Below, in pieces: positions 35,813 through 36,304 of a stretch of 64,000 nucleotides of DNA. A program made the position numbers and the translations under genes. Within the stretch, counting starts at the first letter, position 1, and each line of letters starts with the position of its first letter. The stretch is from the human T2T-CHM13v2.0 reference genome, Homo sapiens. Below the pieces are notes generated by a model. The model worked only from the letters and a program-made list of their open reading frames with translations, had not been told where the DNA came from and searched no databases. The DNA lies in the NCBI RefSeq assembly GCF_009914755.1, contig NC_060935.1, one strand, 5' to 3'.

Positions 35813-36304
35813 CTACAAACAGGTTTTTTCCTGGCTTGGGAAGGGAAATACCATGGGTGATTTGGGGGGAAGGAGTTGTTGGTTTTGGCTTTTGCTTTGG
35901 CTGTAATCTGTTCTCTTTATGTCCTCTAGCACTTGATTGTTTACTCCCCATTTTTGTCCAATTTTGGTGAAGCAAAGCCACTGCTTACCTTTTGGACATA
36001 TAGCCCCATCACAGCTGCCAGATACTCCTAGATTTTTTACTTTATAATAACTTTTCCCTGATTCAACACATTCCTCGATTAAGGTTCCATAACAGGATTT
36101 TTCTATACGAGTATGGTAAATAAAGGACTGTTGCATTTTTCTTCTGTAGTGGAAAGACTGATAACACTCACGGCAGCTCAGAGGGGCTGCTGTGGACAGC
36201 AGGGCAGCTACTGACAATATTAGCATTGTGGTGAGGGATATTCCTGTATTAAGACTTTTGGTTGTAAGTGAGGTACAGCAGGCAGTTGGGTAGATACAGG
36301 CCAT
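35813..36304 (-). CDS. Intact 163-aa suppressyn-like (ERVH48-1 paralogue) env N-terminal ORF; expression unknown
   Basis: MACIYPT...hydrophobic signal LILSVAALLSTAAP...CRECYQS...IEECVESGKSYYKVKNLGV...KQWLCFTKIGQ...VLEDIKR closely matches suppressyn as recalled; strong Kozak gaaATGG; frameshift at ~35911 adds a 32-aa novel tail. Confidence 0.6.
   Translation of the reverse strand: MACIYPTACCTSLTTKSLNTGISLTTMLILSVAALLSTAAPLSCRECYQSFHYRRKMQQSFIYHTRIEKSCYGTLIEECVESGKSYYKVKNLGVSGSCDGAICPKGKQWLCFTKIGQKWGVNNQVLEDIKRTDYSQSKSQNQQLLPPKSPMVFPFPSQEKTCL

What the first reader, a model, noticed from the sequence alone, without database searches (positions are those of the whole stretch)
35813..36304. Intact suppressyn-like secreted env ORF in an otherwise dead HERV-Fb/HERVH48 provirus
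Seen: gag, pol and the rest of env are broken by stops and frameshifts, yet the first 131 env codons are open from a strong-Kozak ATG (gaaATGG). They encode a hydrophobic signal peptide and a Cys-rich domain. An apparent 2-nt loss at ~35911 (the shifted frame still reads EQITAKAKA) adds 32 novel residues and a stop, giving 163 aa with no TM domain. Known: suppressyn (ERVH48-1, ~160 aa, chr21) is a truncated HERV-Fb env that is secreted, binds ASCT2/SLC1A5, inhibits syncytin-1 fusion and restricts RD114/type-D-group retroviruses. Against my recollection of that protein the first ~130 aa are roughly 80% identical; this needs verifying. Inference: a paralogue beside VSTM5, truncated independently to nearly the same length, could be a second suppressyn-like ASCT2 ligand. 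Caveat: a ~130-codon open stretch can survive by chance, and longer ones occur in gag and pol here.
Basis: partly seen in the sequence, partly recalled or inferred. Interest (0 to 1): 0.8.

Follow-up and report, generated by a model that had tools for sequence, protein, structure and literature searches.

The report
Open suppressyn-paralogue ORF in dead provirus
A decayed ancient retrovirus copy next to VSTM5 still carries an open 163-codon reading frame closely related to the human placental protein suppressyn, but nothing found here separates it from a frame that stayed open by chance.

Summary
On the minus strand, 36304 to 35813, an ATG in the context GAAATGG opens a 163-codon frame. Its first 131 residues are 83.8% identical to suppressyn, PDB 8OUI chain D, E 1.5e-70. 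A 2-nt deletion found only in this copy shifts the frame after codon 131, giving 32 unrelated residues and a stop. The frame lies in a near full-length HERVH48/HERV-Fb provirus with both LTRs and a target-site duplication.

The frame keeps the signal peptide, the six cysteines that suppressyn needs for ASCT2 binding, and the suppressyn-type splice donor and acceptor.

The functional reading is not supported:
- About a 0.3-0.4 chance of staying open, judged by this provirus's own density of breaks.
- Terminal-branch dN/dS 0.55 (0.18-1.79), equal to a broken copy on chr12. Suppressyn gives 0.28 (0.12-0.64).
- Orthologue-like frames of human-dead copies are also open in Old World monkeys.
- Independent frameshifts in several loci end on the same out-of-frame stop, so the similar length needs no selection.

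Expression and ASCT2 binding could not be tested here. Verdict: a real, apparently undescribed suppressyn paralogue ORF, most likely a non-selected relic and a cheap lead.

The parts
42162..42550 (-). 5' LTR (MER48-type, 389 bp). It has a TATA-like box AATATAAAA at 42312-42320 and ATTAAA at 42239-42244.
   Evidence: Direct-repeat pair with the 3' LTR. Pairwise K2P 0.129 over 377 aligned sites, with 8 gap events. Aligned with the suppressyn 5' LTR on chr21. Sequence read.
42551..42555 (-). Target-site duplication CTTTC, upstream copy. The downstream copy is at 34065-34069.
   Evidence: The flanks printed end and begin with the same 5 bases.
42142..42159 (-). Primer-binding-site-like stretch just after the 5' LTR. 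It resembles a decayed tRNA-Phe site, but that resemblance is recalled, not tested.
   Evidence: Sequence. The tRNA-Phe assignment comes from memory of HERV-F elements.
42007..42268 (-). Leader exon of RefSeq model LOC101060084. It ends at the splice donor CTG|GTAAGT (exon end 42007). No AG precedes its start at 42268.
   Evidence: Annotation supplied with the finding. Sequence. The donor context is conserved in the suppressyn provirus.
36347..41668 (-). Broken gag-pro-pol, in the order MA, p12 with PPPY, CA, NC zinc knuckle, PR, RT, RNase H, IN. It is in at least 15 pieces.
   Evidence: Gag_p30 E 1.2e-23, RVT_1 4.3e-10, RT_RNaseH_2 2.4e-11, RNase_H 8.1e-15, rve 9.5e-9 and MLVIN_C 1.3e-12 are above the curated cut-off. 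Gag_MA, zf-CCHC and a second RVT_1 piece are below it.
36321..36590 (-). Second RefSeq exon. The splice acceptor ...CTGTCTTGCAG|G precedes 36590. This is the env-type acceptor 286 nt upstream of the ATG. The model stops at a TAA in another frame, 17 nt before the ATG.
   Evidence: The acceptor is identical in 6 of 6 copies that cover it, suppressyn included.
36188..36304 (-). Start codon and signal-peptide codons 1-39, with hydrophobic core at residues 22-40.
   Evidence: Residues 35-41 are identical to suppressyn. Suppressyn's signal peptide of about 39 aa was shown experimentally (PMC12293451; passages, section 3.2).
35912..36187 (-). Codons 40-131, homologous to the receptor-binding part of suppressyn. 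Cys 44, 47, 71, 79, 103 and 111 are kept, Cys95 is absent, and Cys98 is extra. A private 3-nt insertion gives K118.
35912..35917 (-). Site of the private 2-nt deletion that shifts the env frame. The aligner's placement is ambiguous by a few bases.
   Evidence: Present in 8 of 8 pairwise alignments. The shifted frame continues as env.
35813..35911 (-). Thirty-two out-of-frame codons (TDYSQSKSQNQQLLPPKSPMVFPFPSQEKTCL) and a TAG stop. A private deletion of about 34 nt lies inside.
   Evidence: The same terminal ...CL stop is used by P0006, P0009 and P0015.
34452..35812 (-). Remainder of env (C-terminal SU and TM) in at least 6 pieces.
   Evidence: Open frames. Zero of 7 env-region frames hit Pfam at E 0.01 or better. 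The region aligns with the suppressyn provirus.
34070..34451 (-). 3' LTR (382 bp) with ATTAAA retained.

Best explanation
This is the 5' part of the env gene of a HERVH48 (HERV-Fb, MER48-flanked) provirus that entered the catarrhine germ line roughly 30-40 million years ago. [quoted passage not shown]

The first 131 codons (signal peptide plus the receptor-binding part of SU) have taken no stop or frameshift. A private 2-nt deletion in the indel-prone stretch that follows shifts the frame onto a pre-existing out-of-frame TAG, which gives 163 codons.

The open frame is most likely a non-selected survivor of neutral decay. If the LTR-to-env spliced RNA is made and translated, the product would be a secreted protein of about 124 residues. 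That protein could well still bind ASCT2 as suppressyn does.

Shown: homology, anatomy, the private indels, the conserved cis elements, and the lack of a selection signal. Inferred: the age, neutrality, and everything about the protein's behaviour.
For: Identity and anatomy:
- 83.8% identity to suppressyn.
- The provirus is collinear with the suppressyn provirus at 87-88%.
- LTR pair K2P 0.129, with a CTTTC duplication.
- Retroviral domain order confirmed.

Chance is enough:
- My tally of about 21 breaks in about 2,253 codons elsewhere in the provirus gives P(131 codons open) of about 0.3.
- The four broken full-length human copies show 8-9 breaks in the same 129 codons, for a summed branch length of 0.276. 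This copy's branch of 0.033 then predicts about 1 break, so P(0) is about 0.35-0.4.
- Two of 6 human copies that cover the ATG are open through codon 129. One of the two is suppressyn.

No selection signal:
- Terminal-branch dN/dS is 0.55 (bootstrap 0.18-1.79). The broken chr12 copy gives 0.55 (0.21-1.64). The positive control, suppressyn, gives 0.28 (0.12-0.64).
- The branch is equally short in the non-coding flanks. The ORF/flank rate ratio is 0.79 (0.40-1.48).

The similar length is a default outcome:
- Four of 12 aligned proteins, of chr11 type, chr12 type and suppressyn type, end on the same ...CL stop after different frameshifts.
- Piliocolobus P0015, which matches the human-dead chr12 copy, is open for 172 aa.
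- Other dead copies hold open frames of 254-303 aa.

Possible translational handicap: the putative 548-nt spliced leader holds four upstream ATGs. Two of them are absent from suppressyn's leader, and one of those two is private to this copy.
Against: - The gelada protein P0006 (NCBI 'suppressyn-like', 163 aa) looks like the orthologue of this locus. It shares I61 and D99, which occur in 1 of 9 human copies. It is open too, so the first 131 codons have stayed open in two lineages separated for most of the provirus's life.
- Human and gelada differ at only 11 of 130 residues. The chr12-type comparisons give 16-18 of 130, and so do the suppressyn-type comparisons. The difference is not significant (one-sided binomial p 0.22) and matches this copy's generally short branch.
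- All six cysteines essential for ASCT2 binding are kept. The TATA box, splice donor, splice acceptor, start context and poly(A) signal are kept as well.
- RefSeq models the LTR-leader-to-env-acceptor intron with canonical GT..AG, which hints at transcription.
- The dN/dS intervals are wide, resting on about 13 changes on the branch. Moderate constraint cannot be excluded.
Confidence: 0.65

Rival explanations
1. It is a second, maintained suppressyn-like gene. An LTR-driven spliced mRNA yields a secreted receptor-binding fragment. That fragment occupies ASCT2 and thereby damps syncytin-1 fusion and/or blocks RD114/type-D-group retroviruses, perhaps in tissues other than placenta.
For: - Complete signal peptide and receptor-binding homology region, 84.6% identical to mature suppressyn.
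- Six of 6 essential cysteines kept. The one missing, Cys95, is the only dispensable one (PMC12293451, section 3.2 read).
- Splice donor and acceptor identical in context to suppressyn's provirus.
- Frame open in the probable gelada orthologue, and only 11 of 130 residues differ.
- The RefSeq exon junction matches env-type splicing.
Against: - dN/dS is not distinguishable from dead copies.
- Survival is explained by chance at about 0.3-0.4.
- The C-terminal 32 residues are frameshift junk that also carries a 34-nt deletion.
- An unpaired extra Cys98 and Cys162, and an inserted residue next to the conserved WGVN, could disturb folding.
- There are extra upstream ATGs.
- Human RefSeq does not annotate the ORF as coding.
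- The discoverers state that the full-length Fb1 coding sequence exists only on 21q22.3 (passage in PMC3598002).
- No paper in the library names this locus.
- According to passages of the Frank et al. preprint, suppressyn's antiviral activity was lost in several monkey lineages, so sequence similarity does not guarantee activity.
Confidence: 0.15
2. The locus is transcribed, but what matters, if anything, is the RNA or the LTR promoter activity (RefSeq LOC101060084). The ORF is translated at most incidentally and has no maintained role.
For: - RefSeq places a 4-exon model on this strand, with two exons that match the provirus leader and the env acceptor exon. It calls the model a pseudogene and ends it 17 nt before the ATG (annotation supplied).
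- MER48 LTRs are known to drive a long non-coding RNA elsewhere (PMC4375928, search listing only).
- Upstream ATGs precede the ORF.
Against: - No expression data could be consulted here.
- No AG precedes the first in-window exon start (42268), so the support behind the model is unclear.
Confidence: 0.2

Closest known systems
Suppressyn (SUPYN, ERVH48-1, chr21q22.3; PDB 8OUI chain D)
   Same: - Same provirus family and the same part of env.
- 83.8% identical over 130 residues.
- Same signal peptide region and the same six essential cysteines.
- Same splice donor and acceptor contexts.
- No transmembrane part, and nearly the same length (163 against 160 aa).
   Different: - Truncated by a private 2-nt deletion at codon 131 rather than by a stop at codon 161.
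- The last 32 residues are unrelated.
- Cys95 is absent, and Cys98 and Cys162 are extra.
- One residue is inserted at 118.
- Two more upstream ATGs lie in the leader.
- dN/dS is 0.55 (not different from 1) against 0.28.
- No evidence of expression, secretion or ASCT2 binding.
NCBI 'suppressyn-like' predicted proteins of Old World monkeys (gelada P0006, Trachypithecus P0020, Rhinopithecus P0023) and Piliocolobus P0015
   Same: These are open N-terminal env frames of non-suppressyn HERVH48 copies, 152-206 aa long. P0006 is probably the orthologue of this locus and ends on the same TAG.
   Different: - P0006 lacks the 2-nt deletion and K118 and reaches the stop through a later frameshift.
- P0015 and P0020 match the human chr12 copy, which is broken in human.
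- None has been studied experimentally, as far as the library searches show.
The 1,507 human env-derived ORFs of Frank et al. (preprint 10.1101/2020.08.23.263665) and the ORFs of more than 80 aa in the gEVE database (PMC4885607)
   Same: This ORF meets their stated criteria (at least 70 aa with the receptor-binding surface domain; more than 80 aa). It is therefore probably already in both bulk lists (passages read).
   Different: Membership could not be checked. The preprint's supplements are closed and the journal version (PMC10542854) is not held. Neither text singles out this locus.
Soluble or truncated Env restriction factors in other mammals (cat Refrex-1 and mouse Fv4/Rmcf, recalled; cat EnvV2-Fca and mouse SUPYNL1, from listing and passages)
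   Same: The general idea is the same: an endogenous env fragment that blocks a receptor or a fusogen.
   Different: - They come from unrelated ERV families.
- Mouse SUPYNL1 is a 596-aa Env that binds SU subunits rather than the receptor.

Membership tests
Suppressyn-type secreted truncated HERVH48 Env | Sequence homology to the N-terminal SU of HERVH48/HERV-Fb env | tested here: met
   phmmer E 1.5e-70 to 8OUI_D. 109 of 130 residues identical.
Suppressyn-type secreted truncated HERVH48 Env | N-terminal signal peptide of about 39 residues | tested here: met
   Hydrophobic core at 22-40 with KD mean 1.94. Residues 35-41 identical to suppressyn. This is sequence evidence only. Cleavage and secretion were not tested.
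Suppressyn-type secreted truncated HERVH48 Env | Ends before the SU/TM cleavage site, with no membrane anchor | tested here: met
   Stop after codon 163. Maximum KD 19-residue mean after residue 45 is 0.24.
Suppressyn-type secreted truncated HERVH48 Env | The six cysteines required for ASCT2 binding and fusion inhibition (all mature cysteines except residue 95) | tested here: met
   Cys 44, 47, 71, 79, 103 and 111 are present. The requirement comes from PMC12293451, section 3.2. Extra Cys98 and Cys162 are present.
Suppressyn-type secreted truncated HERVH48 Env | Suppressyn's own C-terminal 30 residues | tested here: not met
   Residues 132-163 are out of frame and unrelated. Whether the tail matters for function is unknown. 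The published deletion constructs kept only one or two fragments each.
Suppressyn-type secreted truncated HERVH48 Env | Purifying selection on the ORF in primates | tested here: inconclusive
   Terminal-branch dN/dS 0.55 (0.18-1.79), equal to the broken chr12 copy. Suppressyn gives 0.28 (0.12-0.64). No orthologous primate DNA was available.
Suppressyn-type secreted truncated HERVH48 Env | LTR-driven spliced mRNA expressed in placenta or embryo | not testable with these tools
   The cis elements are present, and a RefSeq model uses the junction. No expression data were accessible.
Suppressyn-type secreted truncated HERVH48 Env | Binds ASCT2, inhibits syncytin-1 fusion, restricts RD114-type entry | not testable with these tools
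The structure paper (Khare 2024) is not held.
HERVH48 / HERV-Fb provirus (MER48 LTRs) | Two LTRs with a target-site duplication, flanking gammaretrovirus-like gag-pol-env | tested here: met
   LTRs 42162-42550 and 34070-34451, with CTTTC on both sides. Pfam domain order confirmed. 87-88% identical and collinear with the ERVH48-1 provirus.

The most novel reading that the evidence does not exclude
The chr11 frame is a second human soluble ASCT2 ligand, kept open since before the ape/Old World monkey split (it is open in gelada too). It is expressed from its own LTR in some developmental or immune setting. There it would add to, or substitute for, suppressyn in limiting syncytin-1 fusion and entry of RD114/type-D-group retroviruses. 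It would also escape detection by antibodies raised against suppressyn's C-terminus.
Probability: 0.12. Interest if true: 0.75.

Novelty: new member of a known kind. Interest (0 to 1): 0.35.

Why it matters
Suppressyn is the only human protein known to block syncytin-1 fusion by occupying ASCT2, and the only human env-derived factor shown to restrict a retrovirus group. A second copy with the same binding domain would bear on three things:
- how knock-down and antibody experiments on suppressyn are read;
- placental fusion control;
- the idea that the genome holds a reserve of env-derived receptor blockers.

If the frame is a neutral relic, as the evidence here favours, it is still a useful natural variant. 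It carries 14 substitutions and one insertion in the mature domain, and could be used to map which residues ASCT2 binding tolerates.

Tried and rejected
- **Structure prediction.** The AlphaFold2 model of the 163-aa protein, built on a 12-row alignment, had mean pLDDT 39.5 and pTM 0.27. It is unusable, so no fold search was run.
- **Pfam.** The ORF has no family hit, only a sub-threshold Herpes_US9 match at E 0.25. Zero of 7 env-region frames hit Pfam.
- **ORF against flank substitution rate.** This copy gives 0.79 (0.40-1.48). The suppressyn control gives 1.18, so the test cannot detect the known selected gene and carries no weight.
- **Complex prediction with ASCT2.** Not run. No ASCT2 sequence was available to the session without joining exons, and the reference option covers only bacteria, archaea and phages.
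- **Papers not held.** Khare et al. 2024 (suppressyn-ASCT2 structure) and Frank et al. 2022 in Science (PMC10542854) are not held. The contact residues and the envORF list could therefore not be checked. The bioRxiv supplements, including 'envORF genome annotations', are closed.
- **Short-contig ENA proteins.** P0002-P0005, P0007, P0008, P0010, P0016 and P0017 mix residues typical of different human copies. I read them as chimeric assemblies of repeats and rejected them as evidence for transcription or for ape orthologues.
- **Cluster of the window's own protein.** It holds 6 member sequences on 13 contigs, the longest 146.8 Mb. That may mean ape orthologues, but the members cannot be listed, so it was not used.
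- **Poisson comparison of human-gelada differences.** The 11 observed differences against a recalled neutral expectation of about 20 give p 0.025. I rejected this as evidence. The expectation is recalled and locus-independent, and this copy evolves slowly in its flanks too.

Full report
**What is there**

On the minus strand, an ATG at 36304 in the context AGAAATGGCC opens a frame of 163 codons that ends at a TAG at 35815-35813. A search of all solved-structure sequences finds suppressyn (PDB 8OUI chain D, 160 aa) at E 1.5e-70. Residues 1-131 align to suppressyn 1-130 with 21 differences in 130 aligned positions and one inserted residue (K118), which is 83.8% identity. The mature part, residues 40-131, differs at 14 of 91 positions. 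Pfam has no family for it.

The hydrophobic core of the signal peptide is kept, and residues 35-41 around the predicted cleavage site are identical to suppressyn. No hydrophobic stretch follows.

**The provirus**

The ORF is the start of env in a near full-length provirus on the minus strand.
- The LTRs lie at 42162-42550 and 34070-34451. Their K2P distance is 0.129 over 377 aligned sites, with 8 gap events. Both are flanked by CTTTC.
- Between them, 9 of 28 open frames hit retroviral Pfam families in the order MA, CA, zinc knuckle, RT, RNase H, integrase. Six are above the curated cut-off and three below. One further hit, to the unrelated family YhzD, looks spurious.
- The element is collinear with, and 87-88% identical to, the chr21 provirus that encodes suppressyn. 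The LTR plus leader are 80% identical.
- The LTR distance implies an age of roughly 29-43 million years at 2.2 to 1.5e-9 substitutions per site per year (the rates are recalled). That fits the catarrhine age Frank et al. give for the suppressyn provirus (passage).
- A table in PMC12228294 equates HERV-Fb with HERVH48I/MER48, at about 60 copies (passage).

**Copies in the genome, and how this one is broken**

A six-frame search of the window's own assembly gave 12 matches at E 0.001 or better among 29 scored candidates. They fall in nine loci, on chr11, 12, 21, 16, 8, 1, 7, 2 and 3. These counts are lower bounds. Six loci cover the ATG. Three are cut at the 5' side, at +140, +220 and +40.

In 8 of 8 pairwise alignments, this copy alone carries:
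- a 3-nt insertion at about +349 (K118);
- a 2-nt deletion at about +388 (window about 35912-35917);
- a deletion of about 34 nt at about +458.

The old frame goes on as REQITAKAKA... in 35590..35916.

Suppressyn has none of these three changes. It ends at a TAA, at the codon where the monkey suppressyn-like proteins P0011 and P0021 continue.

**Is the open frame more than chance?**

Three lines of evidence say no.

1. The provirus's own standard.
   - True-frame open stretches of 259, 225 and 202 codons occur in pol and gag, against 176 codons stop-to-stop here.
   - My tally from those two calls is about 15 breaks in 1,774 gag-pol codons and 6 in the 479 env codons after codon 131.
   - That is one break per about 107-113 codons, so P(131 codons unbroken) is about 0.3.
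2. The four broken full-length copies.
   - In the same 129 codons, chr12 has 1 stop, chr16 has 3 stops, chr1 has at least 1 frameshift, and chr7 has 3 frameshifts.
   - Their summed terminal branch length is 0.276.
   - This copy's branch of 0.033 then predicts about one break, so P(0) is about 0.35-0.4.
3. The copy count. Two of six copies are open, and one of those two is suppressyn.

Other dead copies also hold open frames of 254-303 aa.

**Selection**

I built no ancestral sequence. Terminal-branch dN and dS were estimated from Nei-Gojobori pairwise distances among the six full copies, with 1,000 codon bootstraps.

| Copy | dN/dS | Bootstrap interval |
|---|---|---|
| chr11 (this copy) | 0.55 | 0.18-1.79 |
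| chr12 (broken) | 0.55 | 0.21-1.64 |
| chr16 | 0.72 | 0.35-1.68 |
| chr1 | 0.45 | 0.19-1.21 |
| chr7 | 0.76 | 0.30-3.02 |
| chr21 (suppressyn) | 0.28 | 0.12-0.64 |

The method detects the known selected gene and does not separate this copy from dead ones. These branches include some evolution as a virus before integration, which pulls all values below 1.

This copy has the shortest branch everywhere, flanks included: 0.042 upstream, 0.033 in the ORF and 0.041 downstream. Its good preservation is therefore regional, not ORF-specific.

**Other primates**

The protein database returned 30 proteins at E 0.001 or better among 58 candidates.

- Gelada P0006 (NCBI 'suppressyn-like', 163 aa) shares I61 and D99, which among the nine human copies occur only in this one. 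I take it as the probable orthologue.
- P0006 lacks K118 and the 2-nt deletion, keeps the six essential cysteines, and reaches the same TAG through a later shift.
- Human and gelada differ at 11 of 130 residues. The human chr12 copy differs from Piliocolobus P0015 at 16 of 130 and from Trachypithecus P0020 at 18 of 130. Human suppressyn differs from the monkey-like proteins P0009 and P0011 at 16 and 18 of 130.
- The taxa of P0009 and P0011 are not given. I infer them from likeness to Cercocebus P0021.
- The lower count for chr11 is not significant (p 0.22) and matches its slow overall rate.
- P0015 is an open 172-aa frame at a locus that is broken in human. Open frames of this env segment therefore persist without any known function.

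**Why the lengths agree**

After codon 131 comes a low-complexity, A-rich stretch where every copy differs by small indels. About 100 nt further on lies a TAG in one of the alternative frames. Four of 12 aligned proteins (P0001, P0006, P0009, P0015), representing at least three loci, end on that same ...CL stop after different shifts. A product of 160-175 aa is thus the default outcome of decay here. It is not a sign of convergence.

**What the product would be if made**

The cis elements of a suppressyn-type mRNA are present:
- a TATA-like box and ATTAAA in the LTRs;
- the donor CTG|GTAAGT at 42007 and the acceptor TTGCAG|G at 36590, both matching the suppressyn provirus. The acceptor is identical in 6 of 6 copies that cover it;
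- the same junction in RefSeq model LOC101060084.

That RefSeq model is called a pseudogene, runs in another frame, and stops 17 nt before the ATG. No AG precedes its in-window start at 42268.

The putative 548-nt leader has four upstream ATGs. The one at -280 is private to this copy. The one at -204 is shared with three other copies and absent from suppressyn.

Sugimoto et al. 2025 (PMC12293451, section 3.2 read) showed that six of the seven mature cysteines of suppressyn are needed for ASCT2 binding, and that only residue 95 is dispensable. This ORF keeps the six, lacks Cys95, and adds Cys98 and Cys162. ASCT2 binding is therefore plausible but untested.

The structure paper that would give the contact residues is not held. 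My AlphaFold model was too poor to use.

**Literature**

- Four full-text searches found no paper that names this locus or a human suppressyn paralogue. The terms were suppressyn/HERVH48; LOC101060084, HERVH48_11q21 and variants; HERV-Fb2, ERVH48-2 and MER48; and VSTM5 with endogenous retrovirus.
- Sugimoto et al. [quoted passage not shown]
- Frank et al. list 1,507 env-derived ORFs of at least 70 aa, and gEVE lists ORFs over 80 aa (passages). This ORF meets those criteria and is probably in both lists. I could not see the lists.

**Verdict**

The inference of a second functional suppressyn is neither supported nor excluded. Every test available here is satisfied by neutral survival. I put neutral relic at 0.65, transcribed but not maintained as a coding gene at 0.2, and a maintained ASCT2 ligand at 0.15. 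It is an inexpensive lead, since one expression construct run beside suppressyn would settle binding. As it stands, it is an ordinary feature of a moderately decayed provirus.

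Noticed in passing
window 41177-41276 (minus strand, gag p12 region): Five copies of a 15-nt tandem unit (family D2). On the coding strand they give a repeated Pro/Ser/Gln-rich pentapeptide next to a PPPY late-domain motif (frame 40902..41399).
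   Followed up: no
L005 (chr8 copy) 201-1112 and 1699-2463; L002 (chr12 copy) 2439-3215: Other human HERVH48 env copies that are broken at the N-terminus still hold stop-free frames of 303, 254 and 258 aa.
   Followed up: partly
proteins P0006, P0015, P0020, P0023: Old World monkey genomes carry predicted 'suppressyn-like' proteins that match the human chr11-type and chr12-type copies rather than suppressyn itself. The chr12-type frame is open in Piliocolobus but stopped in human.
   Followed up: partly
proteins P0002-P0005, P0007, P0008, P0010, P0016, P0017: Proteins from short unnamed contigs (0.7-2.3 kb) are mosaics of residues typical of different human HERVH48 env copies. They are most simply read as chimeric assemblies of a repeat family.
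   Followed up: no
window 36321-36590 and 42007-42268 (RefSeq LOC101060084): The model's last exon ends at a TAA in a frame that is neither pol nor env, and that frame holds an internal stop at 36420-36422. No AG precedes the exon start at 42268. What evidence the model rests on is unclear.
   Followed up: partly
window 36024 and 36100 region versus chr21 (leader positions -280 and -204 from the ATG): Suppressyn's leader lacks two upstream ATGs that this copy has. One of them is present in 4 of 6 copies and absent in suppressyn and chr7. Losing upstream ATGs may have helped suppressyn's translation.
   Followed up: no
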